DNA of 64,000 bases from IMG/VR virus record IMGVR_UViG_3300021960_000018. One strand, written 5' to 3'. The position numbers were made by a program, and so were the translations under genes. This document shows, in pieces, positions 3,649 to 18,869 of the stretch (within the stretch, counting starts at the first letter, position 1; the number at the start of each line of letters is the position of its first letter). This DNA is from a virus. Under the pieces are notes generated by a model. It saw only the letters and a list, made by a program, of their open reading frames with translations. It did no database searches and was not told the origin of the DNA.

Positions 3649-4209
3649 TCACTTTTTTAGTTGTTCGAATCCCCAGTTTTTCTCTCTGCATTGCCAACAC
3701 TCCCCACACTCTTCACCAGATGTTTTTCTGATGCAACTTCTCGTCTGTGATAGATCTATAGATAGTTGGTTAGCAAGATCGATAATGTGGTACTTGTATA
3801 GGTGTAAGAACGGGGTCTGCAATCTGGGAGTAGCAATGTTCCAGGGTCGACCTGGCTTGTCAGATGTGGCAAACTCTGGGAAGTATTCAAGGGGAGGAGT
3901 ATGGTTGATACCATAATATAGATTATCAATATCATAGTTTTTAAGAATATAATCTATAGCCGTGGGCACTCTTGCCCAATGTTCAGTAGTAAGTTCTGCG
4001 ATTTCGATTACGGGTTTGTTGGTAATAGCCTTTACTCTAGCGCTACTATCAAACCCGTCAGCTCTTGCAATATTAAAGATTATGGGATTATCAAGTAAAT
4101 GATACATGACAAAACTATCAATCCCGCCAGACATAATAATACCGGGCTTTTTATCGGTTGGGATATTGACTACCCTTTGATCCCATTCAGGTCCGCATAT
4201 ATATTGCAT
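3649..4209 (-). CDS. QueC-like PP-loop ATPase (short, divergent)
   Basis: SGGIDS PP-loop; SC-x8-CGECWQC Zn motif; start at MQYIC after GGAGG. Confidence 0.75.
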   Translation of the reverse strand: MQYICGPEWDQRVVNIPTDKKPGIIMSGGIDSFVMYHLLDNPIIFNIARADGFDSSARVKAITNKPVIEIAELTTEHWARVPTAIDYILKNYDIDNLYYGINHTPPLEYFPEFATSDKPGRPWNIATPRLQTPFLHLYKYHIIDLANQLSIDLSQTRSCIRKTSGEECGECWQCREKNWGFEQLKK

Positions 4210-4240
4210 AACAATCCTCCAAATCATAAGGTATATATCT

Positions 4241-5017
4241 ATGTATGACACTGTTGTTTCAGGATGTAGTTTTACTGCAGCTAATTTCAAGAGTCACGCA
4301 GCGCCTGATGTTGATACTAGCTGGCCAAAATGGCCTGAGTTATTAGGCAATGAAATGGGTTGGAGTGTATTAAATGTTGCCAAAAGCGGATACTCAAACG
4401 AAAGGATATGCGAAGAGGCCATAGAGGCTATAAAGGAAAATAGTAATATAAAAAGATGTATCATTGCTGCATCTGGATGGACTAGGTTTTCTCTTTTCGG
4501 ATATAATTTTATGTGGGATTTTATAATGCAAAAGGAAACCGGACTAGAGGTAATGAAATTGTGGGGTGATGAAGATCCAGAAACGAATCCTATCTATTTA
4601 AAACAAACTCGAGATTTAAAAGAAATAGTACGATTGGTGGAAGTTAAAGAAGAAAAAGCATATCGCCACAGTCTTAAAAAACAACTATACGCATTGGATT
4701 ATTTAAGATTAGTTTGTAAGCAGCGCAATATAGAATTATATTTCTTCCAGATGTTACCAATAGTTAATCATCTTTTTATTGATAGATATAATATAAAACA
4801 GCAGGTCCTGAATAGTTATGAATATAAAACTATGAAAAGGGAATGTAAATTTATTAAACGATACGATTCATTATATGAAAATAATATTATATTAATGAGT
4901 TTTTCAGATAAGAAATTATCTGATAAAGATTTAAGAGTTTCTGAATACGATCAGCATCCTAATAAATTATGTCATGAACTCATTGCACTATGGTTAAAGG
5001 AAGAAATAAATGGTTAA
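4241..5017 (+). CDS. SGNH/GDSL-like hydrolase or acyltransferase
   Basis: GCSFT block I, N-A-SG-SN block II, DQHPN..H block V. Confidence 0.7.
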   Translation: MYDTVVSGCSFTAANFKSHAAPDVDTSWPKWPELLGNEMGWSVLNVAKSGYSNERICEEAIEAIKENSNIKRCIIAASGWTRFSLFGYNFMWDFIMQKETGLEVMKLWGDEDPETNPIYLKQTRDLKEIVRLVEVKEEKAYRHSLKKQLYALDYLRLVCKQRNIELYFFQMLPIVNHLFIDRYNIKQQVLNSYEYKTMKRECKFIKRYDSLYENNIILMSFSDKKLSDKDLRVSEYDQHPNKLCHELIALWLKEEING

Positions 5018-5885
5018 TCATGAGATAGTTGTTATATCATATTTTGGTGAGTTAGAACTGTGTAAACTTCAATTGAAATCATTTGAGGCACATGTAGAAT
5101 CCACAACAATTAATATTATTGTAAACGAACCAGATGTGCAAAGATTTATCAATGGCGTTAAACCGGTTGTTGATAGAATGGTCAATCACAAGGTAGTTTT
5201 CTGGCCAGCAACAGATATAGCAACCTTTCCTCCAATTGAGCAGACAAGATATCTTCCTCGTAATGATCCATTTATGTCATGGGATAGTGCTGTAGAATGC
5301 ATAGACACACTTCATGCTGGATATGGCTGGGTCTTACAACAAGCTTTGAAATTACTGTTTGCGCTCAAGCACAATAAAGATTACGTTGTTTGTGATACTA
5401 AAGACATTTTTATGTATCCTTGTAGTGCTTATGAACTTGACACAAAACAATATGATGATTTTGGAACAGGGTGGGAAAAGAAAAGTTTATGGACTCATCC
5501 TTTTCAAAAAGACTATTATGAAGATGTTGCCAAAAGGTTTGGCGGAGATGTAGATAGAGATACAATCAACGATTATTTAACACCACAAGTCATTCGACAC
5601 GAAGCTGTTTATAAAATTATTGAGCACTTTGGATCAAAAGAAAAATTTATTGAATGGTTTATGTCGTACAAATTTATGTCAGAATTTATTATTCATGACT
5701 ATTGTGTAAAGATATTAGGTCTTCCTGAGAAGCGTAGACAGCCAAGCAATTTTATCACTTATGATCCTAAGGTTCCGTCTGATCATAAAGTTATCAAGTT
5801 TCATAGATCAATATATGAAAGACCGGGAACCAGACACCACTGGGATAATATAGAAAACTATATCAACGGATGTTTAAAATGGTAG
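5010..5885 (+). CDS. DUF6492-like putative glycosyltransferase
   Basis: GWxxQQxLKL, DxKxxF and SEFxxx motifs; paralogous to 6468-7289. Confidence 0.55.
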   Translation: MVNHEIVVISYFGELELCKLQLKSFEAHVESTTINIIVNEPDVQRFINGVKPVVDRMVNHKVVFWPATDIATFPPIEQTRYLPRNDPFMSWDSAVECIDTLHAGYGWVLQQALKLLFALKHNKDYVVCDTKDIFMYPCSAYELDTKQYDDFGTGWEKKSLWTHPFQKDYYEDVAKRFGGDVDRDTINDYLTPQVIRHEAVYKIIEHFGSKEKFIEWFMSYKFMSEFIIHDYCVKILGLPEKRRQPSNFITYDPKVPSDHKVIKFHRSIYERPGTRHHWDNIENYINGCLKW

Positions 5886-6508
5886 AGTATACTACTGATC
5901 AAGAGATAGACCAAAGTTATAGATTTCTTGATGTAGCTTATCCTAAGGAAGATCTATTAAAAGATCTCAATTGGCATTTGACTAATAGTTACGCAGGAAC
6001 CTACACGCTATGTCCTGCACAAAGTTTTGTGCCGTGGAAAGAAAATGTTAAGTCAGAATTCTTCTTTGATTTGTATAGAAAGATAGAGAGTGTTTGGCCA
6101 CATGTAGATGAGCGATCAACTGGATACTATTATTACAAAGATGAGGGGATAGGTTTACAGCCGCACACTGATAAGCACGGAGATCATCCTGGTAAATATT
6201 ATACTTTACTGTTCCCCTTAGAAGGTCTTGGTATTCTTAGATTCTATAAAGAGAAAGAACACCTATTAAAGACTTCATATGTCGATCCGTTTTATAACAT
6301 ATATGATGATAATCCAGTTCAAGAGATAGGGTCTGTATTAATTGATAAACCCATGATATTTAATCCTACTGAAATTGTTCATGCGTTAGACATTGTTGAA
6401 CGAGAACGAAAGATCTTAATGATTAGATATCATAGTGCTCCTGATATAGATCAGTTTAAGATAATTTTTGAAGAGAGATGGAATGAAACTTTTAACGGTA
6501 ACGTGTGA
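5870..6508 (+). CDS. 2OG-Fe(II)/cupin-fold oxygenase-like protein
   Basis: PHTD...H...R arrangement. Confidence 0.55.
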   Translation: MFKMVEYTTDQEIDQSYRFLDVAYPKEDLLKDLNWHLTNSYAGTYTLCPAQSFVPWKENVKSEFFFDLYRKIESVWPHVDERSTGYYYYKDEGIGLQPHTDKHGDHPGKYYTLLFPLEGLGILRFYKEKEHLLKTSYVDPFYNIYDDNPVQEIGSVLIDKPMIFNPTEIVHALDIVERERKILMIRYHSAPDIDQFKIIFEERWNETFNGNV

Positions 6509-7289
6509 AAGGGACTTAACTTGGTTTCTTATACAATGTGAAAGTATTCAAAAATATCTAGAACCATGCACACACTATGTTATCATAAATGAAAAACAAT
6601 ATGATTTGAATTTATGGAAACAAAGAATAGAAAAATATTATACAAACCACACTTTAGTTTTTCTTAATTATGATATTAGTAATTTAGAGATTGGTTGGAA
6701 ACATCCAGAATACAATCATCAATTTTTAGATTATGAAGGGTGGGTAACGCAAATGGCTTTAAAGTATTTGGCCTTTAAAGACATTCAAGATGATTATCTT
6801 ATTTTAGATTCTAAAAATTTTTTTATTAATCATACGTCATTAAACCATTTTAAAGATCAAATCGGATCTGGTCGGACCTGTACTCTTTTACCTTGGTGGG
6901 ATGAAACAGTAAAATGTTATTCAGATTATTTTGGAAAGACTCCTAAAAAGATTCATCTATCAATAGATACTCCGTTTGTATTTCATAAAGCAATTCTTGA
7001 TCGAATATCCGATTATGATAAATTTATTGAATGGTTTATTTCTCAATCGGTTATGCCTAGCGAATTTATATTATATAATTATCTAACATCCTTTTCGGAA
7101 GAAGATATATCAAGATACAAAACCTTTTGGGATCATGATCAATTGGAACAGTATAATTTATCCGATTTGAATAATTATCTTGTGGTAGGATTTCACAGAC
7201 AGGTTATTGGTAGAATAAGTAAATACAAGATTGATGAAATCAATCAATTCTTAAAATTAAAAGGTATACATGACACCGTTTTCGTATAG
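6468..7289 (+). CDS. DUF6492-like putative glycosyltransferase
   Basis: GWVTQMALK, LDSKNFFI, TPFVFH, SEFILY. Confidence 0.6.
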   Translation: MKRDGMKLLTVTCERDLTWFLIQCESIQKYLEPCTHYVIINEKQYDLNLWKQRIEKYYTNHTLVFLNYDISNLEIGWKHPEYNHQFLDYEGWVTQMALKYLAFKDIQDDYLILDSKNFFINHTSLNHFKDQIGSGRTCTLLPWWDETVKCYSDYFGKTPKKIHLSIDTPFVFHKAILDRISDYDKFIEWFISQSVMPSEFILYNYLTSFSEEDISRYKTFWDHDQLEQYNLSDLNNYLVVGFHRQVIGRISKYKIDEINQFLKLKGIHDTVFV

Positions 7290-7818
7290 GATACATAAGA
7301 ATCCATATGATGTAAATAAAATGTATGATGAAGCCATGGAAAGAAGGCTTAATCCAACTTACAACTTGAAGTTGGTAAAAGAGAGTTTATGGAATCATAA
7401 TTTTTGGTATGTAGAAGATAGAGAGAAATGGGAAACATTTAATAAGATTGCTCCGCTTACGAAGGCCATTGGATGGGATGGTCACGAATGGGATTATCAT
7501 GTTTGCTATTGGGAGTGGAACCCCGCAGATACGTTAGAGACTCATATTGATGATCCGGCTATAGGCAGAGGCAATCTTTTAGTTCCCATCATAGGTGAAA
7601 CCACCACTTACTTCTACGATATAGTTGATGAAAAAGATGTGGCAAAGCCTGGGGAATCAAGACCGTATAAAGAAATTGAAACCGATCCACGACAAAGTAC
7701 TTTTTCAATTACATATGGTCCAGGGGAAGTCCTAGAAATTGAAAACAGCATGTGGTATCACAGTGTACACCCTAAACAAGAATATAGATTACATATGCAA
7801 TTGAGGTTAGCATGGTAG
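7270..7818 (+). CDS. 2OG-Fe(II)/cupin-fold oxygenase-like protein
   Basis: HID...WYHSV...R. Confidence 0.55.
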   Translation: MTPFSYRIHKNPYDVNKMYDEAMERRLNPTYNLKLVKESLWNHNFWYVEDREKWETFNKIAPLTKAIGWDGHEWDYHVCYWEWNPADTLETHIDDPAIGRGNLLVPIIGETTTYFYDIVDEKDVAKPGESRPYKEIETDPRQSTFSITYGPGEVLEIENSMWYHSVHPKQEYRLHMQLRLAW

Positions 7819-8246
7819 ATATTGAGAGAATCTTAGAAGAGCTAATAATTGTTCCTTCCGGTCTTCAGGTATGCCTGCAGGGGGTAGAAGGAATTGATGA
7901 TCCATTCTATGGCACTGGTAAACTTCAAAACGTAAATCATACAGAAGATATGTTTACAGTTCCATTGTTCGATATACCCTATACCAACTCAATTATTAAA
8001 CAGTTAGGTATGACTAGAACCCGAGTAATGAGAATGGCGCCGATCAGTTGTTATTCTTATCATCAAGATCCAACTCCTAGAATGCACATTCCATTAGTCA
8101 CTAATGATAATTGCTTTATGGTATTAGACGATAAAGTAGAACGATATCCAGCAGATGGAAACTACTATTTGGTAGACACTACTAAAAAACACACTTTTGT
8201 AAATGCATCATGGGAAGAGAGAATCCATCTTGTTGGATGTGTTTGA
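7812..8246 (+). CDS. Aspartyl/asparaginyl beta-hydroxylase family protein
   Basis: YSYHQD..RMHIPLVTN...DTTKKHTFVN....RIHLV. Confidence 0.75.
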   Translation: MVDIERILEELIIVPSGLQVCLQGVEGIDDPFYGTGKLQNVNHTEDMFTVPLFDIPYTNSIIKQLGMTRTRVMRMAPISCYSYHQDPTPRMHIPLVTNDNCFMVLDDKVERYPADGNYYLVDTTKKHTFVNASWEERIHLVGCV

Positions 8247-8792
8247 ATATCTTACCTCATCAATGTAACTAATATCACCAGTGTAAAATATGTTCTGATA
8301 ACTATCTTTGTAGATCAATTCTACAGGATCTTTATACAATTCCCAGTCTGCAAATATATCTGGTCTGCCACGTTTTAATCTTTCAAAGAATTTACCAGAA
8401 CGATCTCTGCTCCATATAATTAGTGGATATTCTTTTCTTAGTATTTCCAAACTATATTTCAATTCTTTGAAGTCGTCTACCTTCTCTAAAGGTTTAGTAC
8501 CATCTGTTCGATAGTTAGGATAAGAATAATAACGACTAAACACTCTAACAACATTGTCAGATAATTTTTCACTACCACTGGCTAATATTGGCTGTTCACC
8601 GTCAAAGCATATATTGTATAGATGCATGCGATGCAGGTTCAATCTTTCTCTCGAGTAATTGACACCCAGCCTATCGTTTGCAGCAAATGTGGTTAAATCA
8701 TCAATAGCATTTTCACATCTAAACAAATCGTGATTTGTTAGATCGGGATTGATCTGTCCTTTATAGAAAAAAGTTAATAGCTCTATGTTCAT
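8208..8792 (-). CDS. Hypothetical protein, possible GNAT-like fold
   Basis: RVFSRYYSYPNYR resembles GNAT motif A; 4-nt overlap with upstream gene. Confidence 0.5.
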   Translation of the reverse strand: MNIELLTFFYKGQINPDLTNHDLFRCENAIDDLTTFAANDRLGVNYSRERLNLHRMHLYNICFDGEQPILASGSEKLSDNVVRVFSRYYSYPNYRTDGTKPLEKVDDFKELKYSLEILRKEYPLIIWSRDRSGKFFERLKRGRPDIFADWELYKDPVELIYKDSYQNIFYTGDISYIDEVRYSNTSNKMDSLFP

Positions 8793-9334
8793 TTGTAAAT
8801 GGCCTTAGACTGTATCTTTTGAAAAAATGCTTGGCCGTGTTCTATTTGAAACAATTTACACAATTGAGAACATGATGCAAAACTGTTGATGCCAAGCATC
8901 GGCCATTTTTTGGAATCATCATCTAACTCGAAAAAATAATCGTCAACGACTAGAATGCCATCTATCTTCAATAGCCTTTCCAATAAAAACAAAGCTCCTG
9001 CATTATCTGCAGCTGACTTTGCTGCATCCAAATATATGAAGTCGTATTGCTCTTCGTGGGGTAATTTGCCAATGGTTTCTAAAGCATCTCCTTTATAGTA
9101 TGTAATCTTATCTTCCCACTGCTTTACGTTGTGGTATAAGTTGTCTACATAGCTATGATGCAATTCATCAACAATGTCTAGTTTACCTTGATCGCCGACA
9201 AGATTCTCCAGAATCCATATAGTAGATCTGCCTTCATAACATCCAACTTCTAAACAATTTAAGTTAGTAGGAAGCTGAAGAGAAGACCAAACCTTTCCTC
9301 TATCATTGAAAAAATCATGAGTGAATTTGTACAT
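8789..9334 (-). CDS. Class I SAM-dependent methyltransferase (Methyltransf_24-like)
   Basis: LEVGCYEGRS, YDFIYLDA, LKIDGILVVDDY. Confidence 0.85.
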   Translation of the reverse strand: MYKFTHDFFNDRGKVWSSLQLPTNLNCLEVGCYEGRSTIWILENLVGDQGKLDIVDELHHSYVDNLYHNVKQWEDKITYYKGDALETIGKLPHEEQYDFIYLDAAKSAADNAGALFLLERLLKIDGILVVDDYFFELDDDSKKWPMLGINSFASCSQLCKLFQIEHGQAFFQKIQSKAIYK

Positions 9335-9956
9335 CCAGAATTTCTCTCTTACCAGCAAATATTTCTAAATCTAAAAAGATAGATCGTACATCATATGCTT
9401 TTTTATAAACATCAAACTCTTGCTGGATTGTATTCATTACTAGTCTTTTATCCCAGTGTCTTTGTTCTACACAGGGTTCTTGAATAAGAGCATTGGGGGA
9501 TTTATAGTATTCTGTAACAACCTTTGTAAAAAATTCAAAGTGATCATTAGGTCTATACAAGAGTACAGCACTGAACAATACCATGTCCACTGGAAAGTCA
9601 ACGATAAAAGATGCCTTATCATTCCAGCTTTCGTTTCTGAATTCGATGTTATTATAATCTTTCCATTTGTCTATAGCTAACGCAATTGGTTCAATAGAGG
9701 TGTCAAAGCCCATATATTGAAATTCAGTATATCCTCTTTCATAAAGAACATCTAAGACATTGCCTAATCTACAACCCACATCGACAATACCTTTACATTG
9801 TCTTTCGATAATAATATCGGCTTGTGCCTCAAATATGGGTCTGGCTTGCGGTGTATCCAAATAAGCCATAGAAGCAACATAGTAGTTTTCTTTTAGAGGA
9901 ACTTGGTGTCCATCTTGTATGTTTTCTAAATTGGGAAAAGGTACTACCAAAACCAA
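9315..9956 (-). CDS. Class I SAM-dependent methyltransferase
   Basis: IVDVGCRLG motif I, YMGFDTS, SAVLLY. Confidence 0.8.
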   Translation of the reverse strand: MVLVVPFPNLENIQDGHQVPLKENYYVASMAYLDTPQARPIFEAQADIIIERQCKGIVDVGCRLGNVLDVLYERGYTEFQYMGFDTSIEPIALAIDKWKDYNNIEFRNESWNDKASFIVDFPVDMVLFSAVLLYRPNDHFEFFTKVVTEYYKSPNALIQEPCVEQRHWDKRLVMNTIQQEFDVYKKAYDVRSIFLDLEIFAGKREILDVQIHS

Positions 9957-10474
9957 ACTCCCATGCTATATCTAACGCCATCTGATACTGGAGTTACCTT
10001 GTGTGGATATAAAAACATTGATGGGAAAATTATAGTATCTCCAATTTCCATATCGATTTTTTGTTCAAGAATATAAAATTCTCCGCCTTCAAAGTCTTTA
10101 TTTAATAACGTAACAGCACTTAAAACTGGTCTACAAATGTGATTTTTACAAAACGGAATGAATATATGATCTGCATGATTTTCAATTCCATGCCCTACGA
10201 CATATTTAACGAATATTGGTTTAGTGTTGCCAGAAATATTCGGGGAAATAACTGATAATGATTCAATGTATCGAGTATATTTCTCTTTTAATCCTTCCCA
10301 TTTTGTTTGAAGTTCTGTTATAAGATCTTTATCTTCTGTATGTCCATTAAGGGGATATATTGAACCATTATCTCTCAAGATCCCTTCAGATTCTATTTTT
10401 TTAATAATATTATTACATTCGTCTACGGTAAAATAGTTTTTAACCACATAAGAATAATCAATTAAGTTTTGCAT
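9944..10474 (-). CDS. Prolyl-4-hydroxylase-like 2OG-Fe(II) oxygenase
   Basis: HAD, LNKDFEGGEF, FPS..YPHKVTPV..GVRYS. Confidence 0.9.
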   Translation of the reverse strand: MQNLIDYSYVVKNYFTVDECNNIIKKIESEGILRDNGSIYPLNGHTEDKDLITELQTKWEGLKEKYTRYIESLSVISPNISGNTKPIFVKYVVGHGIENHADHIFIPFCKNHICRPVLSAVTLLNKDFEGGEFYILEQKIDMEIGDTIIFPSMFLYPHKVTPVSDGVRYSMGVWFW

Positions 10475-11265
10475 ATCACACCGTAATCACTTGCAATTCG
10501 CCATTGAAGTCTTGGACCCATTACAGGTGTGCGTCTATGCAAAGTCATAAATTGATCCATTAAAAAAAGATCACCCTCAGCAAATACGTGATGCACTTGG
10601 TATTTGCTTTTGAAAATTTTAGGTTTTAATTTTGAGATCATTTCTTCATGATCAATTTTCTTTTTACCTTCCCATGCCCCAATAATAAAGTGATAAGGGA
10701 AATAAAAATAATCAACACCCGTATGAGGATGCTGACCAACTAATGGTCTAATACTACCTTTGTTCTTACTCATAAACTCAAGCTCTGGATCATCTTCATC
10801 TAGATGATACATTGTATCGTTTTGAAATTTTAATCTGATAGTAATTGATTTCCAATACTCTTGTTCGTCAGCACTCATATCGTAAAACGGCCGACTGGTA
10901 TTGCAAATGCTCAGCGTTGTATTAACATCCCCTTTGATACAATACAATCCAATAAGGATCTTATCAATGAGATGCCTACTGTTACCGTTGCTGTGCCATC
11001 CAAGCTCTCCATCACCAAACATACCAATCTTTTTGCCTTCTGAGTCTCTTTCTCCGGTGACAAAAAAGATTTCTGGGTAGTCTTTGTGATTCATGAATAA
11101 GCCAGGTGCTTCACATTCCCCAATACGTTTAAAGGTTGAAACATACTGCTGTTCATTTAATTCTTGGTCGTATAGTAATGCACAACCCTCGGTCATAACA
11201 TTATTAATTAATTCTTTTAATTCTTGATCATTGTAATTGTAAATCTGTGAGGTCATCGGTTCCAT
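10462..11265 (-). CDS. TauD/TfdA family dioxygenase
   Basis: LGWHSN, PLV..HP.TG, GDL..MDQ..TLHRR. Confidence 0.8.
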   Translation of the reverse strand: MEPMTSQIYNYNDQELKELINNVMTEGCALLYDQELNEQQYVSTFKRIGECEAPGLFMNHKDYPEIFFVTGERDSEGKKIGMFGDGELGWHSNGNSRHLIDKILIGLYCIKGDVNTTLSICNTSRPFYDMSADEQEYWKSITIRLKFQNDTMYHLDEDDPELEFMSKNKGSIRPLVGQHPHTGVDYFYFPYHFIIGAWEGKKKIDHEEMISKLKPKIFKSKYQVHHVFAEGDLFLMDQFMTLHRRTPVMGPRLQWRIASDYGVICKT

Positions 11266-11848
11266 CCAAACTAAACATTAATGCAATTCTTGGTTTATCA
11301 CTCATATTCACTACAGCATGTGGATAACCAATATTTAAAAAGTAAGCGTTTCCGTCTTCTAAATTATATGCCTCTAATTTTCCATCACGTTTAAATAAGT
11401 TAACAACATTATTACCACCGTAGATTGGACAAATACATCTAACGGCATAATCGACATCATAGTCAACATGAAATGGAATTGTTTTGCCCGGAGCAAGTTT
11501 GGTAATACGAATTCTGCTAGCTTTAGCTTTCAATTGTGTGACAATCTTTTCAAAATAACTACCAGTATATTCTGGTGTAGGAACATTGTATAGATGTTCC
11601 TCTCTACGTCTAAGTCGTTCTTTAATACTGGCAGTGTAAGGCATTAGCTCACTGGGTTCAGTGAGATTAATCTGTTCAAAGTTATCATAAACGTTTTTTA
11701 CTAATTCCATGTGATTATCACACAGCATTGGGTTGGCAGATCTTACATCAGTATACTTGGATGCAAGTTGATCTGCAGCCTCTCTTAACAATTCTAGATC
11801 AATCTCTAGACCTAAGTTAGCATAAGTCGGTAAGTTATGTTTTTTCAT
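11228..11848 (-). CDS. Aspartyl/asparaginyl beta-hydroxylase family protein
   Basis: RITKLAPG..IPFHVD, NIGYPHAVVN...RIAL. Confidence 0.8.
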   Translation of the reverse strand: MKKHNLPTYANLGLEIDLELLREAADQLASKYTDVRSANPMLCDNHMELVKNVYDNFEQINLTEPSELMPYTASIKERLRRREEHLYNVPTPEYTGSYFEKIVTQLKAKASRIRITKLAPGKTIPFHVDYDVDYAVRCICPIYGGNNVVNLFKRDGKLEAYNLEDGNAYFLNIGYPHAVVNMSDKPRIALMFSLDGTDDLTDLQLQ

Positions 11849-12666
11849 TACTCAATTCCTGTTATACACAATCTTGCAATATCTCGATACCTACGACGTG
11901 TTTGATAATAATCATCAGTACTGGTACCTATAAAATAAGTATCGCTAGGATTTAAATCATATTTCCAACAAACTTGTTTTTGGGTTTCTTTATATCTATG
12001 ATACATTTCATCAACTGTGAATTTGTTCATTATAGCTTTCATAATAATAGCAGCAGAATAATTAAAACACTCAACCTTTTTTAGTGGATGTAAAGTAGGA
12101 TGAGGTTTTTTGGTATACACTAGTCCACATCTTTGACCGATCAATCCAAACCCCTTACTAAAGCTAAACATTACTTGTTCAGTATTCACAGGTGCAACTA
12201 TTCTTTTAATAGGGGTTGAAGAAATATAAGCGCAATCTAAAATGATAGGCACATCGATGTTATCAAATTCAAATATGTTTCCATCGTAGCATCTTGGATT
12301 ACTAATGTACAACACGTGATCTGGTAAAAGTTCTTCTACTTGCACGCCATTGCCAGATATCATTTGTGGCCACTGATACTCGCCTTCAAAATACTGCCAT
12401 GGTCTTCTATCACTCATTCTCCAATGATTAATAGCTTCTGTAGCTCCAGATGTAACATAGGCATAAGAAAAATCTGAAAGATCTATAATACTACTTACCC
12501 ATTTTCTGTGTAGATTAATAGTATCTTCTAGATCATAACTAGCAGCCCCAGTTCCTCTTTGATAATAGCTATCCGATATTCTTATGGAATTTAGAAGATC
12601 ATATACATCGGGCCAAATTGGAGATTGAACCCATTGACTATTTTTTAACAAAGAGCTTTTCTGCAA
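11848..12666 (-). CDS. PLP-dependent fold-type-I (aminotransferase-like) enzyme
   Basis: SGATEA, SNP...G, ILDCAY, SFSKGFGLIGQRCG (PLP lysine). Confidence 0.8.
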   Translation of the reverse strand: MQKSSLLKNSQWVQSPIWPDVYDLLNSIRISDSYYQRGTGAASYDLEDTINLHRKWVSSIIDLSDFSYAYVTSGATEAINHWRMSDRRPWQYFEGEYQWPQMISGNGVQVEELLPDHVLYISNPRCYDGNIFEFDNIDVPIILDCAYISSTPIKRIVAPVNTEQVMFSFSKGFGLIGQRCGLVYTKKPHPTLHPLKKVECFNYSAAIIMKAIMNKFTVDEMYHRYKETQKQVCWKYDLNPSDTYFIGTSTDDYYQTRRRYRDIARLCITGIE

Positions 12667-13273
12667 GCCACCCTCCGGTATCCCATTTATGAAGTCTTAC
12701 ACGTCTCCAGTTGTCGTGATGATTTCTGTGAAAGCCTTCACCTGCTACAAAGAAGTTTAACCACCATTTATTAGATCCACCTTCATCGGAATGTCCATAA
12801 GTATTTAAAAGGCCAAAGCCCACCTTTGCAAATACAAATGGAATGGCCGCATACGCTAACCAAAAATATGGGCTGATCAAAAAACTAATAACATTGTGAG
12901 CCAGTAATAATTTTTTATGGTGGTTATGAAAGAAAACTAAACGTGGATTGCTATACAGATCCCTTGCATATTTCATGGGTATCTTGGGAACGTCCCAGGT
13001 TGTAGTCAATACCTTCCATCTACCAATGTATTGCCAAGCGTGGGGATCTTTTTCTGTATCACTATGCTGATGATGCATTCTGTGACTGGCTATCCACCCA
13101 ATAGGGGATCTAATATAAGCGACAGATAACATGAATAGGCCCATAACCTCAAACCACACAGGCACTTTAAACTGTCGGTGACAGTAATGACGATGTAATA
13201 AAATTGACGCTCCAAAATGAGATATAATCTGACTCCAGATTAATCCAATAATAATGATAAAAACTAATGTCAT
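12638..13273 (-). CDS. Membrane fatty-acid desaturase family protein
   Basis: His boxes HRHYCH, HRMHH, GEGFHRNHH; TM segments. Confidence 0.9.
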   Translation of the reverse strand: MTLVFIIIIGLIWSQIISHFGASILLHRHYCHRQFKVPVWFEVMGLFMLSVAYIRSPIGWIASHRMHHQHSDTEKDPHAWQYIGRWKVLTTTWDVPKIPMKYARDLYSNPRLVFFHNHHKKLLLAHNVISFLISPYFWLAYAAIPFVFAKVGFGLLNTYGHSDEGGSNKWWLNFFVAGEGFHRNHHDNWRRVRLHKWDTGGWLAEKLFVKK

Positions 13274-13926
13274 CTGCCTGCTAGTGGGTTATCCAATGCC
13301 TCTTGTAATCTCATTTCAAGATCAGTTCTAAGGGTTCTCATATTAGTATCTATACGCTCCTCTGTATCCCGCATTGTATCACGTACGTCCTTTTCTGATT
13401 CGCGGATAGTCCCTTCGACTTCCCGAATAGAAGCAGTTACATCTTTTTCCTGCTGGTTCATGTCCGCGCGCACGCCCTCGAGAGTCGCTTCAATTGAGAC
13501 CTGTGTTGCTTTAATCCTTGCCTCTGCATCTTCTAAAGATTGACCTACGCGGATTTCTAGTTCTCGCATATCTCTTTCAACTCTATCGGTCGTCTGTTCA
13601 ATGCGTAGAATATCGTCTCTTAGGCCGTTTTTAATATCGCGCGTGTACGCGATCGCTTCTTCTAGTTTAATCTCTATTTCATTATTACGAGCTTCAATAG
13701 CATCAGTATCAATATTGGCAATGATTTCTTTCATCCCCATATAGTCATTATAGACTTGGAATGCACCATAAAGTCCGCCAATAATAGAACTGATAATAGC
13801 AAAGGCTGCACCAATTGTAGTCGGCGTTACAGTAATACCAAATACTTTCATTTTGGTATTTTTAAGATTTTCTATTTCTTCTTCGAACGCTTCTGTTAGT
13901 TCGCCTAAGTCTTTATCTTCTGCCAT
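13270..13926 (-). CDS. Membrane-anchored coiled-coil protein
   Basis: One TM (IGAAFAIISSIIGGLYGAF) followed by a long heptad-rich region. Confidence 0.7.
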   Translation of the reverse strand: MAEDKDLGELTEAFEEEIENLKNTKMKVFGITVTPTTIGAAFAIISSIIGGLYGAFQVYNDYMGMKEIIANIDTDAIEARNNEIEIKLEEAIAYTRDIKNGLRDDILRIEQTTDRVERDMRELEIRVGQSLEDAEARIKATQVSIEATLEGVRADMNQQEKDVTASIREVEGTIRESEKDVRDTMRDTEERIDTNMRTLRTDLEMRLQEALDNPLAGR

Positions 13927-13928
13927 TC

Positions 13929-14378
13929 TTACTCCTCGAACTGTAAAGCCCTGAGTGCTGAGATTTCTTCTTGCAGTTTTAAAATCTCCATTTGTCTTGC
14001 TTGTAGTTCTAATTCGAATAGTCTATTACAATCGATTCTTTCTTTAGGTTTAGCACCAAGCGGAATAACGATACGAGCAAATACACCAATATCAGCGAAA
14101 GGATCTAGATATTGATCATTGTAATACCAATCACCGTTATTAATAACGCCCATTACTCCGAACTCTAGATTAGTAGCCGAACCAATAGCATTAGCACATT
14201 CTAAGTCACCGGCTCTAATCCTATCTTGCATATTATTAGTAGAGGCTTGCGGCATGCTTAAGTTAATCGCACCGCTTTGATTCGGTAATAGATTTTGTGC
14301 TATAGCCGGATCAGGGAGATTACCTGATACGCAACCTGCAATAAACATTGGTAGGATTAAACCCAAATATTTCATCAC
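13929..14378 (-). CDS. Putative lipoprotein with beta-hairpin and C-terminal coiled coil
   Basis: Lipobox IAGC; LEFGVMG...DIGVFARIVIPLG; two further Cys. Confidence 0.7.
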   Translation of the reverse strand: MMKYLGLILPMFIAGCVSGNLPDPAIAQNLLPNQSGAINLSMPQASTNNMQDRIRAGDLECANAIGSATNLEFGVMGVINNGDWYYNDQYLDPFADIGVFARIVIPLGAKPKERIDCNRLFELELQARQMEILKLQEEISALRALQFEE

Positions 14379-14746
14379 TTTTCTCCATCAATCTTAGAAC
14401 AAATAAGAGAAGCTACATTAGTAATATTATCTGCCATAGATCTGGAACAAATATATGTAATTCGATTAATGTCAGATTTTCTAAAATATAGTTTTGCTTC
14501 TATCCCTTGCCCATATTCAAGCTTTACATATCGATCAAACGATGCAAATTCAATTGGTACCCAATCTTCAGTATAAACTTCGAATTGATATCTATCAGCA
14601 TCTTCCCTACGATTAAATAGTTCTACTGTACTCATATAAATGTTATTATATGGGGTAGGAATAATCTTAAAATAGGTAGGTGTCATTTCATGAGCTGCAG
14701 CACCAGTAGAAAACATTAGTGCTGCAGCTAATAATAATTTTTTCAT
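14375..14746 (-). CDS. Exported protein, possible PapD-like pilus chaperone domain
   Basis: Sec signal ending AAA; xxPTY start, beta-rich, C-terminal Cys pair. Confidence 0.5.
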   Translation of the reverse strand: MKKLLLAAALMFSTGAAAHEMTPTYFKIIPTPYNNIYMSTVELFNRREDADRYQFEVYTEDWVPIEFASFDRYVKLEYGQGIEAKLYFRKSDINRITYICSRSMADNITNVASLICSKIDGEK

Positions 14747-14759
14747 CTTATAAGTTCCC

Positions 14760-15263
14760 TTACTGGGCGATGCACTCCGCCGTTACAATGGCCACATAGT
14801 TACCAGCAGGAAATGCTTTATCATAACCATAATTGGCTGTTGATGTTACTTTAAACCAAACCGTTCCAGCTTCAGTTAGATCGAATTCAGTCGTATTATT
14901 ATATTCAATTTTATTTGTATCGTAAGCCGACATAGCAGCATCTGTTACTTCGGCAACCTCGACTTCGCCAGTCCAAGTTACTGTATCAGATAGAGATGGC
15001 GAGCTTTGGAATTCATTTGGCCAAGAAATTTTGGCGACATATGAATCTGCCAAAGCAACATCATATCTGATCTTTGGCATTACACCACCATCTGTAGTAA
15101 CAGTAGTTAGTTCGTCTGGTGTTGGCTGTGCGTAAACACCATTGATATCTGTATGGATTGTACATTTAGATTGTACAGTTCCATAAATTGGGCTGTTATT
15201 AGCTGAAGCGGTGAGTGTTGACCCAGCCAAAACAGCAGTAACAGCAAAAACTTTTTTGAACAT
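14760..15263 (-). CDS. Exported pilin/fimbrial-subunit-like protein
   Basis: Sec signal; GTVQSKC N-terminal strand; C-terminal PAGNYVAIVTAEC (G-x-Y followed by an alternating strand). Confidence 0.55.
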   Translation of the reverse strand: MFKKVFAVTAVLAGSTLTASANNSPIYGTVQSKCTIHTDINGVYAQPTPDELTTVTTDGGVMPKIRYDVALADSYVAKISWPNEFQSSPSLSDTVTWTGEVEVAEVTDAAMSAYDTNKIEYNNTTEFDLTEAGTVWFKVTSTANYGYDKAFPAGNYVAIVTAECIAQ

Positions 15264-16153
15264 TAGTTCTCTCCGTTATTGTTTTCGTATTGTGAACGTA
15301 CCATCGCCCGGTGGTTAGCATCATTCGCTAGGCTTCTAAGTACACTCCCATTATCTGGCAATTGTGAATCCACTAATACTAAAACATCCTGATAAGTACC
15401 ACCAGGAATACTCGTAGCATAATACTGTTCAAAAGCTGGGACTGAGCCCATTTGTAATATTACTTCGGCCTGATTAATAGTTCCAGCTAATTCAGCAATA
15501 CTAGTTTTTGCATCTAGTTGCTGTTCTAACTCGGACTCTTCATCGGCATTTTCTTCCATAACAACTTGTTCTTCTTCAACATCGACTTCTTGTTCTAATT
15601 GTCTTTGAACCCATTCATTGTAATATGGATCATTGAAATCAGGATTATTTAAAAGTCCATTCTCAAGTAAGTAATCATATAAAGCCTGTTCAAATCCTGG
15701 GCATCTTGGATCATCAAGAGGTACCATACAGGTGTCATATCTGTATCTATATCTTACTGTGGCGTCAGTTACTTCACCTTCGCCTTCAGTGACTATTTCG
15801 CCATCTCCAAATCTAGTTCCTAATATACCGCCTAGCGGATCATAACCAACTATTGTATTACCAGGCAACCCACTCCAATCATCAGTGTGGGTGTAGATAT
15901 ATCCTACTGCATCATTATCCTTGTTTCTAATTGTTACCAGTAAGTCAGCATCCGGATCTTTTACTGTGGTATAACGAAATAATACACCGTCAATAACTAA
16001 CCCCGATTGTGGGGGTAGAAGATCTGGCATATACCAATAATATCCATTGACCGCGGCATTCCCAGTAACGCCAGGGATTATTTCAGAGCGCAAGGAGGAG
16101 GAGTAACAAACCACCAACAGTGGCAAGACCACCCGCAGTAGATTTAGTCTCAT
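15263..16153 (-). CDS. Exported acidic protein
   Basis: Signal-like N-terminus, beta-rich domain, C-x7-C pair; TAATG coupling to the next gene. Confidence 0.65.
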   Translation of the reverse strand: MRLNLLRVVLPLLVVCYSSSLRSEIIPGVTGNAAVNGYYWYMPDLLPPQSGLVIDGVLFRYTTVKDPDADLLVTIRNKDNDAVGYIYTHTDDWSGLPGNTIVGYDPLGGILGTRFGDGEIVTEGEGEVTDATVRYRYRYDTCMVPLDDPRCPGFEQALYDYLLENGLLNNPDFNDPYYNEWVQRQLEQEVDVEEEQVVMEENADEESELEQQLDAKTSIAELAGTINQAEVILQMGSVPAFEQYYATSIPGGTYQDVLVLVDSQLPDNGSVLRSLANDANHRAMVRSQYENNNGEN

Positions 16154-16661
16154 CGCTCATTCCTTTTAATACGCCTTCTCCCTCAGCCGGTTGATCACCA
16201 CTATTTGCCGCCCAAGCTGCTTTCGCTTCATCGCCAATTAATCCATCAAATGGACAAGGAGTTCCAGCATTCATCATAGCAGAAAATACATCTGGATCTT
16301 GACACATTACAGATACTGCAGCAACCTTCATGCCCATATCATATAGTACTTTAGCATTTTTCAATCTTAAACAGTTTTCTTCGGTAAACACCGTACCAGC
16401 GGAAATACCCAAGATCTGCGTTTGAACTGCTCCTGCCACCCCAATAGTACATAAATCCGAATTAGCAGAATTTATGGATGGGGATATAGCCGAAGGAGGT
16501 GGTGAAATAACCGTTGTAGTAGAAGTAGAGTCTACTGTGCTAGTACCGTCTGTACGAGTACAAATATAACCTTCCGGACAAGTTACCTCTTGTGCAAGAG
16601 ATGCAGATGCATACACTATACCAAATAATAGCAACGTAATCCTTAAAACATATTTAACCAT
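16083..16661 (-). CDS. Exported Cys-rich protein with C-terminal membrane anchor
   Basis: Sec signal, six Cys, GGLLLLLLAL tail. Confidence 0.7.
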   Translation of the reverse strand: MVKYVLRITLLLFGIVYASASLAQEVTCPEGYICTRTDGTSTVDSTSTTTVISPPPSAISPSINSANSDLCTIGVAGAVQTQILGISAGTVFTEENCLRLKNAKVLYDMGMKVAAVSVMCQDPDVFSAMMNAGTPCPFDGLIGDEAKAAWAANSGDQPAEGEGVLKGMSDETKSTAGGLATVGGLLLLLLAL

Positions 16662-16696
16662 TTTATTTTCCTAGAGGATTATTATTCATTCATGGC

Positions 16697-16704
16697 TATT
16701 TATA
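16697..16704 (-). promoter_or_regulatory. T4 late promoter TATAAATA
   Basis: Exact consensus just upstream of the 16661 start. Confidence 0.8.
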
Positions 16705-16723
16705 TAAAAAAAATTCTATTCAT

Positions 16724-16756
16724 AAAAAAAAGGGGCAGCTTTCGCCACCCCTTTTT
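16724..16756 (-). terminator. Intrinsic terminator
   Basis: AGGGGTGGC-GAAA-GCTGCCCCT followed by a T run. Confidence 0.85.
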
Positions 16757-16775
16757 ATTTCTAATATCTTATATA

Positions 16776-17150
16776 TTAGAACGAGAAAGCAACACCGAGT
16801 GTAATTTCGCCCATATCCATGGCATCAAGATCCCATGAAGATTTAACGTAGGCAGTGGCCATATCATTTAGACCATAGGAGGCTGAAAGATCAATGACTG
16901 GAAGCGAACCAAAAGCGTCCATAAGAACGAGTTCGTTGTCATAGACTACAACATCAGTTGAAGCAGCGAAAATAAAGCCCCAGTTGGTGTAACCAATTTC
17001 AGGGGTTACGACAACGGACATGTCACCAGCGTTGACAGTGTATTCAGCAACAGCATTAGTATTTAGCAATAGACCGGTATTACCGATTTCAGCAGCCGAA
17101 GCAGCAGAAGCGGCAAGAAGAGCAGCAGTGGTAAAAGCAGCTAGTTTCAT
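16776..17150 (-). CDS. Small outer-membrane beta-barrel (porin-like) protein
   Basis: Sec signal; amphipathic strands; C-terminal TLGVAFSF beta-signal. Confidence 0.7.
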   Translation of the reverse strand: MKLAAFTTAALLAASAASAAEIGNTGLLLNTNAVAEYTVNAGDMSVVVTPEIGYTNWGFIFAASTDVVVYDNELVLMDAFGSLPVIDLSASYGLNDMATAYVKSSWDLDAMDMGEITLGVAFSF

Positions 17151-17170
17151 TTTAGATTTCCTTAATTTAC

Positions 17171-17392
17171 TTATTTACGAGACCAGATTTCATATAGAAC
17201 CCAAACAGCGATCAGACCAACAAGGCCTTGAGAACCGAGAGCAGCAACAATAGCAGAAACGTTGCCAATGACGCTGACACCAGCGATAGATGGCATCCCA
17301 AGAACTTCCAGAACGATACCAAGAGCCAAGAGACTGACACCTAGCTCAGCAACTTGACCAATAACAGATTTAACTTTGTTTAGAACTTCCAT
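17171..17392 (-). CDS. Small membrane protein
   Basis: Two hydrophobic segments; AGGA SD. Confidence 0.7.
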   Translation of the reverse strand: MEVLNKVKSVIGQVAELGVSLLALGIVLEVLGMPSIAGVSVIGNVSAIVAALGSQGLVGLIAVWVLYEIWSRK

Positions 17393-17414
17393 ATTAGACT
17401 TCCTTTATGTTTGA

Positions 17415-17737
17415 GAAATTGGGCCCGTTCTGTTTCTAGGTGGAACCCATACCCACTTAGCAAAAAGCAGTTCTTAGGCTGCTAAAGCCAGAGGAGCAAA
17501 GTTATCGTTTGCATTTAGTTTAATTGATCTATACGCGATCATCCGGTAAACTCCACTCAATCTTCACACCTGTCGATCCTATTTCGACCCCATCATAAGC
17601 ACACCGGCAGTTAAACATGCATTCTTTTAACTAATCCGCCCTAAACTAATAATTGATTAGTACCGATGTGCTTATGGTGGAGTCGCTGGGTACCGCCCCC
17701 AGGTCCAGAATGTGTCCACGTTGCTTCAACGTTTACA
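17415..17737 (-). ncRNA. ssrA: Circularly permuted (two-piece) tmRNA
   Basis: Acceptor piece ...CTGGGGGCGGTACCCAGCGACTCCACCA ends at 17675; coding piece starts GGGGTCGAAATAGGATCGAC at 17591; tag ANDNFAPLALAA* at 17512-17474; outer ends approximate. Confidence 0.93.
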
Positions 17738-17749
17738 AACATACTTATA

Positions 17750-18328: not shown

Positions 18329-18334
18329 ACTAAT

Positions 18335-18364: not shown

Positions 18365-18366
18365 CT

Positions 18367-18843: not shown

Positions 18844-18869
18844 GTTTCCTGCCTCGGATTTTTATGTAA

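What the first reader, a model, noticed from the sequence alone, without database searches (positions are those of the whole stretch)
8208..13273. Eight-enzyme tailoring cassette translationally coupled to the exported-protein operon
Seen: a desaturase, PLP enzyme, AspH-type hydroxylase, TauD dioxygenase, P4H-type oxygenase, two SAM methyltransferases and a GNAT-like ORF each overlap the next gene. The first overlaps the coiled-coil gene by ATGA, giving one apparent late unit of about 8.5 kb from 16661 to 8208. The TauD homolog has HSN where the family usually has HxD. Known: the AspH family includes lipid hydroxylases (LpxO, OlsC). Inference: this is a phage biosynthetic gene cluster making a modified lipid, amino-lipid or small molecule, or decorating the exported structure.
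Basis: partly seen in the sequence, partly recalled or inferred. Interest (0 to 1): 0.72.

Follow-up and report, generated by a model that had tools for sequence, protein, structure and literature searches.

The report
Phage oxygenase-rich lipid/amino-acid tailoring cassette
A marine T4-like phage carries a tightly packed set of oxygenases, a membrane desaturase, a PLP enzyme, methyltransferases and an acetyltransferase-fold protein; the same set recurs in many related phages and in some predatory-bacterium genomes, so it is probably one undescribed pathway that tailors an amino-acid-derived, probably lipid-linked, molecule.

Summary
Eight minus-strand genes (13273 to 8208) overlap or abut. 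The first overlaps the upstream coiled-coil gene by ATGA. The TauD homolog has H-S-N where the family has HxD.

New here:
- The cassette is half of a larger AT-rich island (3649-13273). Its plus-strand arm adds two or three oxygenase-like proteins, two DUF6492-like proteins and a QueC-like PP-loop protein.
- A core set recurs: SCD-type desaturase, HisC/CobD-like PLP enzyme, two hydroxylases, HxN-TauD, one methyltransferase and a GNAT-fold protein. It occurs in Pelagibacter phage Mosig and dozens of viral contigs, with variable order. At about 30% identity it also occurs in Bdellovibrionota MAG chromosomes.
- The desaturase-hydroxylase pair is the most persistent. P4H and the second methyltransferase are accessory.
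- Both 'AspH-type' proteins are closest to Cpz10 and free-proline hydroxylases, not to human AspH.
- HxN marks a whole TauD clade.
- The exported-protein operon is not co-conserved with the cassette and evolves differently.

Best reading (about 0.4): a pathway that tailors an amino-acid-derived, probably acylated, small molecule or aminolipid. The substrate is unknown. The two pelagimyophage papers read do not describe it, and the keyword searches found nothing.

The parts
12638..13273 (-). SCD-type integral-membrane di-iron desaturase (core). It is short (211 aa) and is the only cassette protein with transmembrane segments.
   Evidence: Pfam FA_desaturase. Weak match to acyl-CoA desaturase 1 (4ymk), E 0.003. 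All His boxes plus NxxxH are invariant. Hydropathy.
11848..12666 (-). Minimal class-I (HisC/CobD-like) PLP enzyme (core)
   Evidence: Invariant N, D..Y, SFSK and R. Profile against the PDB finds histidinol-phosphate aminotransferases and threonine-phosphate decarboxylase, E 4e-4 to 4e-3. The nearest ESM Atlas clusters are 86-100% viral.
11228..11848 (-). Fe/2OG hydroxylase 'AspH1', Cpz10/proline-hydroxylase-like (core, the most conserved gene)
   Evidence: Pfam PF05118. HxD..H..R invariant, 81% mean column identity. AF2 pLDDT 85.5. Foldseek best hit 7V4M/7V4F, E 5e-12. 1090 protein clusters in metagenomes.
10462..11265 (-). TauD-family oxygenase with HxN in place of HxD (core)
   Evidence: Pfam TauD. 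Best PDB hit ScoE, with WHSN aligned to WHAD. W-H-x-N-G, H-x-R and two further R are invariant in 23 diverse relatives. Most of the 150 representatives carry WHxN.
9944..10474 (-). P4H/PKHD-type 2OG-Fe(II) oxygenase (accessory)
   Evidence: Pfam 2OG-FeII_Oxy_3 and phrog_61. Present in 4 of 19 and in 6 of 31 loci.
9315..9956 (-). Class-I SAM methyltransferase MT1 (core)
   Evidence: Four methyltransferase Pfam models at E 6e-6 to 6e-4. Present in all 19 loci, often duplicated.
8789..9358 (-). Cation-dependent O-methyltransferase-like MT2 (accessory, found only in this genome)
   Evidence: Methyltransf_24 and Methyltransf_3. No homolog in 18 or in 78 related loci.
8208..8792 (-). GNAT-fold protein (core). 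The CoA-loop motif is only partly kept.
   Evidence: AF2 pLDDT 87. All top Foldseek hits are GNAT acetyltransferases. Alignment.
7812..8246 (+). Second Cpz10-like Fe/2OG hydroxylase 'AspH2' (core). It is convergent, and its 3' end overlaps the GNAT gene by 39 nt.
   Evidence: Pfam PF05118. Profile against the PDB: Cpz10 E 1e-20, proline cis-4-hydroxylase E 7e-9. Sequence.
7270..7818 (+). AspH2-related cupin-like protein with H-x-D..H (accessory)
   Evidence: Alignment invariants. hhalign to the AspH2 family, E 0.0012.
5870..6508 (+). Protein with invariant H-T-D..H..R, oxygenase-like (accessory). The fold was not confirmed.
   Evidence: Alignment. No PDB or Pfam match. hhalign inconclusive.
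5010..7289 (+). Two DUF6492-like paralogs (5010-5885 and 6468-7289) that flank 5870-6508
   Evidence: The two are paralogs (cluster 57). ESM Atlas features 0.97 to DUF6492 clusters. No Pfam hit at E 0.01.
4241..5017 (+). First gene of the plus-strand arm, unknown function
   Evidence: 27% identical to a Mosig ORF in the divergent operon. No Pfam hit.
3649..4290 (-). QueC-like PP-loop ATPase, divergent from the plus-strand arm (recurrent accessory)
   Evidence: Pfam QueC, E 5.8e-10, C-terminal part. Related PP-loop genes lie in phage loci and MAG islands.
13270..13926 (-). TM plus coiled-coil protein. Its stop overlaps the desaturase start (ATGA). It is not part of the conserved set.
   Evidence: A homolog occurs only in L014/L089.
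16697..16704 (-). T4-type late-promoter-like TATAAATA before the exported-protein operon
   Evidence: The same motif lies before the first cassette gene in Mosig, L013 and L014.

Best explanation
The stretch is the minus-strand arm of an AT-rich, horizontally mobile island of about 9.6 kb (3649-13273). The island encodes one multi-step tailoring pathway, not a set of unrelated auxiliary genes.

The conserved core is:
- a membrane SCD-type di-iron desaturase;
- two soluble Cpz10/proline-hydroxylase-like Fe/2OG hydroxylases;
- a TauD-family oxygenase of an uncharacterised HxN clade, whose nearest solved relative is ScoE, an enzyme that acts on an N-carboxymethyl-amino fatty acid;
- a minimal HisC/CobD-like PLP enzyme;
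- a SAM methyltransferase;
- a GNAT-fold transferase.

The proposed mechanism is inferred, not shown. In the infected cell, probably late in infection, the PLP enzyme makes or decarboxylates an amino-acid-derived amine. The GNAT-fold protein N-acylates or N-acetylates it, and the methyltransferase(s) methylate it. The soluble Fe/2OG enzymes hydroxylate or otherwise oxidise the amino-acid part. The membrane desaturase works on an attached fatty-acyl chain. The product would be a lipo-amino-acid or aminolipid-like metabolite, or a modified host membrane lipid.

P4H, MT2, the DUF6492-like proteins and the extra oxygenases are lineage-specific decorations. The coupling to the exported-protein operon is a local accident of gene packing.
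For: Shown:
- Tight packing with no intergenic gaps.
- In TauD-anchored loci (17 IMG/VR contigs plus Mosig), Des, PLP, AspH1, TauD, MT1, GNAT and AspH2 recur. AspH1 is directly followed by TauD in 16 of 19 loci, although the other genes are rearranged.
- In 31 Des-anchored loci with at least 7 kb on both sides, AspH1 is present in 30, TauD in 28, PLP in 27 and MT1 in 27.
- Reduced versions keep Des plus AspH1 plus AspH2.
- The same families cluster at 29-40% identity in Bdellovibrionota-labelled MAG contigs of 118-505 kb. These are flanked by EF-Tu, RNR, aaRS and aroA/B/C genes, and no T4-type capsid gene was found in those MAGs with the window's capsid protein as query, a blank the tool itself calls uninformative.
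- In L026 a second membrane lipid-type enzyme (FA_hydroxylase, PF04116) sits beside Des.
- Catalytic residues are intact and invariant in Des, the PLP enzyme, AspH1 and AspH2 and TauD apart from D to N.
- The closest solved relatives of both AspH-type proteins hydroxylate free amino acids or an amino-acid side chain of a small molecule (PMC9814697).
- The closest solved and NCBIfam relative of TauD is ScoE.
- Only Des is membrane-embedded.
- The island has the lowest GC of the window, 0.33-0.35.
- It differs by 1% or less among strains in four metagenome runs.
Against: - No substrate or product is known for any of these clades.
- No acyl carrier protein, acyl-activating enzyme or acyltransferase of a lipid type was recognised in the window.
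- The GNAT fold's nearest structures are acetyltransferases for proteins, aminoglycosides and polyamines, not N-acyl amino acid synthases.
- Related islands also carry radical SAM/SPASM, PP-loop, GT2, SDR, DegT and carbamoyltransferase genes. These fit glycan or peptide chemistry at least as well.
- A GNAT-SET fusion in L025 hints at a protein substrate.
- Expression timing and co-transcription are not shown.
Confidence: 0.4

Rival explanations
1. Cell-envelope glycan or LPS remodelling. The enzymes modify lipid A-Kdo, O-antigen or capsule building blocks of the infected cell, for example to block superinfection. The desaturase would act on lipid A acyl chains. The PLP, GNAT and methyltransferase enzymes would decorate amino-sugar or aminoalcohol-phosphate substituents.
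For: - Pelagimyophage hypervariable islands are reported to be rich in LPS-related genes (PMC7029224).
- The window also encodes KdsA-family and KdsB-family proteins.
- The island holds DUF6492-like proteins.
- Relatives' islands hold GT2 and SDR genes. Mosig's holds DegT and carbamoyltransferase genes.
- PseH is among the GNAT fold hits.
- From my own knowledge: HisC/CobD-like PLP enzymes make aminoalcohol phosphates for Campylobacter capsule decoration.
Against: - No glycosyltransferase, flippase or sugar-nucleotide enzyme belongs to the conserved core.
- The reduced version is only desaturase plus two hydroxylases.
- The closest solved relatives of the oxygenases act on amino-acid-type substrates.
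Confidence: 0.2
2. Post-translational modification of a protein or peptide by hydroxylation, methylation or acetylation. The target could be a phage fibre or exported structure, or a host protein.
For: - In about a dozen relatives the cassette abuts an Mtd_N-domain fibre-like gene. In Mosig it abuts tail-fibre genes.
- In the window it is coupled to exported-protein genes.
- The top GNAT fold hits include protein acetyltransferases.
- L025 has a GNAT-SET fusion.
- SPASM radical SAM genes lie in related islands.
- A P4H-type enzyme is present.
Against: - A PLP enzyme and a membrane acyl desaturase have no obvious role in protein modification, yet both are core.
- There is no room for a precursor-peptide gene inside the cassette.
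- The exported operon and the fibre gene are not co-conserved with it.
- The set persists in bacterial chromosomes without phage structural genes.
- Human AspH ranks only 44th among AspH1 fold hits.
Confidence: 0.15
3. No common pathway. The island is a hypervariable dump of independent auxiliary oxygenases, for example for 2OG/succinate balance or repair, packed tightly only because phage genomes are compact.
For: - Order and orientation vary between relatives, and many accessory genes come and go.
- T4-like marine phages are known to carry many orphan 2OG oxygenases (my own knowledge).
Against: - Co-occurrence is 87-97% in independently anchored loci.
- It persists at about 30% identity in cellular genomes.
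- The AspH1-TauD adjacency is nearly invariant.
- AspH1, TauD and Des are strongly conserved (67-89% identity).
Confidence: 0.07
4. Nucleic-acid (DNA or tRNA) hypermodification pathway.
For: - QueC-like PP-loop, radical SAM, PLP, GNAT and methyltransferase genes recur in or near the island. These enzyme types occur in phage base-hypermodification clusters (my own knowledge).
- MT1 weakly matches a PHROG labelled tRNA methyltransferase.
Against: - A membrane desaturase is the most persistent member.
- No TGT/DpdA, kinase or glycosylase-type DNA-handling gene was recognised in the island.
Confidence: 0.05

Closest known systems
Gene block Mosig_00072-00081 of Pelagibacter phage Mosig EXVC030M (MT647606)
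   Same: The only cultured phage with the cassette. AspH1 is 72% identical, TauD 68% and Des 69%, and PLP, MT1 and AspH2 are present. All lie on one strand behind a TATAAATA motif.
   Different: Its genes are annotated singly and are not described as a unit. It adds a peroxiredoxin and an FMN reductase, and has a different GNAT-like gene. It lacks P4H and MT2. It lies beside tail-fibre genes rather than an exported-protein operon.
Cpz10, the Fe/2OG beta-hydroxylase of caprazamycin biosynthesis (PDB 7V4F/7V4M; PMC9814697), and free L-proline hydroxylases (4P7W, 1E5R)
   Same: They are the best solved relatives of both AspH-type proteins (profile E 1e-20; Foldseek E 5e-12, TM 0.64/0.78). The HxD..H motif is kept.
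   Different: Identity is only about 20%. The substrate of the phage enzymes is unknown. The other hallmark enzymes of a liponucleoside cluster (SHMT-like transaldolase, aminoribosyl enzymes) were not recognised in the window.
ScoE, the TauD-family isonitrile-forming oxygenase acting on (3R)-3-[(carboxymethyl)amino] fatty acids (PDB 6DCH)
   Same: It is the best solved and NCBIfam relative of the TauD homolog. The alignment is full-length, and the distal His and Arg are kept.
   Different: The match is weak (E 2e-8, well below the NCBIfam cut-off). The metal-binding Asp is Asn throughout the phage clade. No other Sco-type genes are present.
Cyanophage-encoded Delta-9 lipid desaturases (vFAD; PMC5776448)
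   Same: A DesC/SCD-type membrane desaturase with the three His boxes, carried by a marine T4-like phage.
   Different: It is not a close relative. tblastn against all GenBank phages finds only Mosig. It is much shorter (211 aa), and it sits inside a co-conserved multi-enzyme set rather than standing alone.
Lipid hydroxylases of the AspH family, LpxO and OlsC
   Same: Same Pfam family (PF05118), and a desaturase neighbour would fit a lipid substrate.
   Different: No membrane anchor. No NCBIfam match. The closest solved relatives are small-molecule hydroxylases. There is no LpxO or OlsC structure to compare with.

Membership tests
TauD/TfdA Fe(II)/2OG oxygenases (PF02668) | Sequence match over the curated cut-off across the whole domain | tested here: met
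   58.6 bits against a cut-off of 27, residues 11-256.
TauD/TfdA Fe(II)/2OG oxygenases (PF02668) | 2-His-1-carboxylate facial triad (HxD/E ... H) | tested here: not met
   H-S-N aligns with H-A-D of ScoE. N is invariant in 23 diverse relatives and the distal His is kept.
TauD/TfdA Fe(II)/2OG oxygenases (PF02668) | Arg that binds the 2OG C5 carboxylate, after the distal His | tested here: met
   R245, R252 and R256 are invariant. Which of them binds 2OG was not determined.
Cpz10 / free-amino-acid hydroxylase subgroup of PF05118 | Pfam match, HxD..H ligands, and closest fold to Cpz10 or proline hydroxylases | tested here: met
Cpz10 / free-amino-acid hydroxylase subgroup of PF05118 | Activity on a free amino acid or on an amino-acid moiety of a small molecule | not testable with these tools
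   Needs enzyme assays.
AspH/LpxO/OlsC-type protein or lipid hydroxylases | Membrane anchor or TPR substrate-binding domain, and closest similarity to these enzymes | tested here: not met
   No hydrophobic segment. The proteins are 206 and 144 aa, catalytic domain only. Human AspH is rank 44. LpxO and OlsC themselves could not be compared.
SCD/DesC-type membrane acyl desaturases (PF00487) | HRxxxH, HRxHH and HxxHH boxes plus the NxxxH motif | tested here: met
   All are invariant in 14 sequences. Pfam 35.5 bits against 29.7.
SCD/DesC-type membrane acyl desaturases (PF00487) | Four transmembrane helices and a full-length (about 300 aa) architecture | tested here: inconclusive
   The protein is 211 aa with only 26 residues before box 1. 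Hydropathy shows segments at 3-21 and 128-156. The MAG homologs carry an extra N-terminal segment.
Fold-type I class-I aminotransferase-like PLP enzymes (PF00155) | Schiff-base Lys in S-x-S-K, with Asp, Tyr, Asn and Arg contacting the cofactor | tested here: met
   Invariant N123-region, D144, Y147, S168, S170, K171 and R179. They align to HisC motifs.
Fold-type I class-I aminotransferase-like PLP enzymes (PF00155) | Pfam match over the cut-off | tested here: not met
   15.6 bits against a cut-off of 19.7. The protein is truncated relative to the family (272 against about 360 aa).
GNAT acyl-CoA N-acyltransferases | GNAT fold | tested here: met
   All top Foldseek hits are GNATs, E about 2e-5, TM 0.45-0.65.
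GNAT acyl-CoA N-acyltransferases | Q/R-x-x-G-x-G/A pyrophosphate-binding loop | tested here: inconclusive
   R-D-x-[GS]-x-x follows strand 4. It reads R-D-K-G-T-G in some orthologs and R-D-R-S-G-K in the window.
Biosynthetic/tailoring gene cluster | Co-localised genes that are co-conserved across lineages | tested here: met
Biosynthetic/tailoring gene cluster | A defined product | not testable with these tools
   Needs metabolomics or lipidomics.
Caprazamycin-type liponucleoside cluster | SHMT-like transaldolase, aminoribosyl enzymes and a lipase-like acyltransferase beside the two oxygenases | tested here: not met
   None was recognised among the island's 15 ORFs with Pfam, NCBIfam or PHROGs.

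The most novel reading that the evidence does not exclude
Marine T4-like phages, and predatory Bdellovibrionota with which they share the module, encode a natural-product-type pathway. Its product would be a bioactive lipo-amino-acid or liponucleoside-like compound that acts on the Gram-negative envelope of the host or prey, for example to time lysis or to exclude competitors. An HxN clade of TauD-family enzymes would carry out chemistry not yet described for Fe/2OG oxygenases.
Probability: 0.08. Interest if true: 0.9.

Novelty: new variant of a known kind. Interest (0 to 1): 0.62.

Why it matters
- Phage auxiliary genes are usually read one at a time. Here seven or more enzymes behave as one conserved, mobile pathway in an abundant group of ocean phages. 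The Des anchor alone finds at least 539 viral stretches, and AspH1 has more than 1000 protein clusters.
- One member of the group, Mosig, is in culture on Pelagibacter. The product can therefore be sought directly by lipidomics or metabolomics.
- If the product is a lipid or lipo-amino acid, this would be a bacteriophage counterpart of virus-driven lipid remodelling known from algal viruses.
- The TauD clade with Asn in place of the metal-binding Asp is conserved and under strong constraint. It is a defined target for enzymology: does it bind iron, and what reaction results?
- The sharing of the module with Bdellovibrionota chromosomes raises a testable question about gene flow between phages and predatory bacteria.

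Tried and rejected
The gene neighbourhoods of the more distant HxN-TauD relatives (P0124-P0270) could therefore not be read. The listing of cluster members gave only metagenome sources and generic names.
- No RNA holder was listed for the stretch, so co-transcription and timing could not be tested. Read laying used DNA contigs only.
- The search for related loci with the wide alignment A8 failed for lack of a conserved stretch. The narrower A9 worked.
- PDB sequence searches found nothing for the GNAT-fold family, p5870 or c16. hhalign of p5870 and c16 against AspH1 was inconclusive.
- Literature searches found no paper on the gene combination, on Asp_Arg_Hydrox in phages, or on an Asn-for-Asp TauD triad. 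The two pelagimyophage papers do not mention the cassette.
- The sigma-70 promoter and terminator scans were not above shuffles.
- A T4 capsid search in the four MAGs found nothing. This is weak evidence only.
- Pfam on 20 more ORFs of the MAG islands mostly gave no family.
- Considered and set aside:
  - Curli-type function for the cassette: no similarity.
  - RiPP cluster: no room for a precursor gene.
  - Ectoine-like or carnitine-like pathways: they share only superfamily composition.
  - Cyanophage vFAD orthology.

Full report
**What the window is.** It is part of a complete 157-kb virus record with terminal repeats. It encodes T4-type DNA polymerase, helicases, major head protein, portal, sheath and large terminase. 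The only GenBank phage with DNA similarity to 8208-13273 is Pelagibacter phage Mosig, at 71% over 40% of the stretch. Near-identical DNA occurs in estuary, marine and freshwater-labelled metagenomes of nine studies.

**Observation.**
- Eight minus-strand ORFs run from 13273 to 8208 without any intergenic gap.
- The upstream TM/coiled-coil gene ends in the ATGA that starts the desaturase. MT2 and the last gene share another ATGA.
- Pfam supports the desaturase, AspH-type, TauD, P4H-type and methyltransferase labels.
- The PLP label rests on invariant cofactor residues and a profile match to HisC/CobD-type enzymes.
- The GNAT label rests on a confident AF2 model whose top fold matches are all GNATs.
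- A T4-type late-promoter motif lies 36 nt before the 16661 start, with none between it and 8208 on that strand.
- Terminator-like hairpins are no more frequent than in shuffles.
- A single late transcript is therefore plausible but not shown. No RNA data could be found.

**The unit is larger than the finding.**
- The GNAT gene converges on, and overlaps by 39 nt, a second AspH-type gene at 7812-8246.
- That gene closes a six-gene plus-strand arm (4241-8246). The arm holds two DUF6492-like paralogs and two proteins with HxD..H signatures.
- A QueC-like PP-loop gene is divergent from the arm.
- In relatives, homologs of these plus-strand genes sit on the same strand among the 'minus-strand' genes.
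- The block at 4001-12000 has the lowest GC of the window.

**Conservation.**
- I fetched 17 viral contigs through TauD and clustered all their ORFs with those of Mosig and the window.
- Des, PLP, AspH1, TauD, MT1, the GNAT-fold protein and AspH2 recur in essentially all loci.
- AspH1 is directly followed by TauD in 16 of 19 loci. The other genes move in blocks. In several loci the desaturase flips to the far end, convergent with the rest of the cassette.
- AspH1, TauD and Des are 63-89% identical to the window's copies. PLP, MT1 and GNAT are 32-62% identical.
- P4H occurs in 4 loci. MT2 occurs only in the window.
- As an independent test I anchored on the desaturase. At least 539 viral stretches encode a relative.
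- Among 31 of the best 80 loci that have at least 7 kb on both sides, AspH1 is present in 30, TauD in 28, PLP in 27 and MT1 in 27. Homologs of the coiled-coil and exported-protein genes are present in only 1-2.
- Some diverged loci keep only Des plus AspH1 plus AspH2. The desaturase-hydroxylase pair is thus the most persistent link.
- Among cultured phages only Mosig has these genes.

**Cellular counterparts.**
- A scan of one genome per prokaryote species for the HxN motif region found six loci, all in MAGs.
- Four lie on contigs of 118-505 kb labelled Bdellovibrionales, Bacteriovoracaceae, Bdellovibrionia or 'bacterium'.
- In those loci TauD (x2-3), AspH-like (x1-2), Des (x1-2) and sometimes PLP, MT1, GNAT, p7270-like and c16-like genes cluster at about 29-60% identity.
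- The flanks hold EF-Tu, ribonucleotide reductase, two aminoacyl-tRNA synthetases and aroA/aroB/aroC.
- The window's capsid protein finds nothing in those MAGs, a blank that the tool itself calls uninformative. I therefore take them as chromosomal islands, with the usual caution about binning.
- These islands add a GNAT-SET fusion, a FA_hydroxylase (PF04116) next to Des, an HTTM protein, PP-loop proteins and many radical SAM/SPASM enzymes. Some of the radical SAM enzymes are 60-65% identical to those of phage islands.

**What the enzymes resemble.**
- Des keeps every SCD-type metal ligand. It is the only membrane protein of the cassette.
- Both AspH-type proteins are closest to Cpz10, which hydroxylates an aminobutyryl side chain in caprazamycin biosynthesis (PMC9814697), and to free-proline hydroxylases.
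- The AspH2 profile matches Cpz10 at E 1e-20. The AspH1 model matches at Foldseek E 5e-12, while human AspH ranks 44th.
- The TauD homolog is closest to ScoE.
- Its Asn in place of the metal-binding Asp is not a local defect. Only 259 of 1.84 billion representatives match at E 0.001 or better. Most of the 150 listed carry W-H-x-N, and N is invariant in 23 diverse members together with the distal His and Arg residues.
- One phage paralog type keeps W-H-T-D.

**Interpretation.**
- A co-conserved set links a membrane acyl-chain enzyme to amino-acid-type hydroxylases, a PLP enzyme, a methyltransferase and a GNAT. This is best explained as one pathway that tailors an amino-acid-derived, probably acylated, small molecule or membrane aminolipid (about 0.4).
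- Envelope glycan/LPS remodelling (about 0.2) and protein modification (about 0.15) remain open. Related islands carry glycan-type and peptide-type enzymes, and the island often lies beside fibre genes.
- The link to the exported-protein operon is local. That operon is absent from almost all other carriers.
- Across strains the island differs by 1% or less, while 13307-17454 differs by 4-7%. Contigs break at the Des/coiled-coil junction.

**Novelty.**
- The genes are annotated singly in the Mosig record.
- Neither the two pelagimyophage papers nor keyword searches describe the set, the HxN clade or the Bdellovibrionota link.
- I rate it a new variant of a known kind: a virus-borne multi-gene tailoring pathway.

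Noticed in passing
window 13307-17454 versus 3845-13306: In four metagenome runs the coiled-coil and exported-protein genes differ from the window by about 4-7%, while the tailoring island differs by 1% or less. Contigs break at about 13277-13306. The exported operon looks like a fast-evolving module.
   Followed up: partly
window 17418-19782: thyX (19120-19782), a cell-wall hydrolase (18367-18843) and a two-piece alpha-type tmRNA (17418-17790) precede the exported-protein operon. This is the place where Melnitz and pelagimyophages are reported to carry thyX-ssrA-csgGF (PMC9004378). No CsgG or CsgF Pfam match was seen in the window's exported proteins.
   Followed up: partly
L027 (G003:C34:165000-183000) and L025: The MAG island runs for more than 35 kb. 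It holds at least seven radical SAM/SPASM genes, two of them 60-65% identical to genes in phage loci L013/L015. This suggests recent exchange between phages and this bacterium.
   Followed up: partly
L025:12452-13456: A GNAT domain is fused to a SET (lysine methyltransferase) domain inside the bacterial version of the cluster.
   Followed up: no
L026:14927-15814 and 18800-20155: A FA_hydroxylase (PF04116) gene lies beside the desaturase homolog, and an HTTM-domain membrane protein lies at the edge of the bacterial cluster.
   Followed up: no
L001 (Mosig) about 14252-14265: TATAAATA motifs on both strands lie between the cassette's first gene and a divergent nitroreductase / radical SAM / DegT / carbamoyltransferase operon. 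This may be a bidirectional late-promoter region.
   Followed up: no
window 8208-8246: The convergent GNAT-fold and AspH2 genes overlap by 39 nt at their 3' ends, with no terminator between them.
   Followed up: no
window 29793-31301: Adjacent CTP_transf_3 (KdsB/NeuA-type) and DAHP_synth_1 (KdsA-type) genes lie in the replication region.
   Followed up: partly
L004/L007/L008/L009/L018 and L003/L006/L009/L011: There are two further TauD paralog types in related islands. One carries W-H-A-N-G. The other carries either the canonical W-H-T-D or W-H-[SC]-N plus an insertion of about 35 residues.
   Followed up: partly
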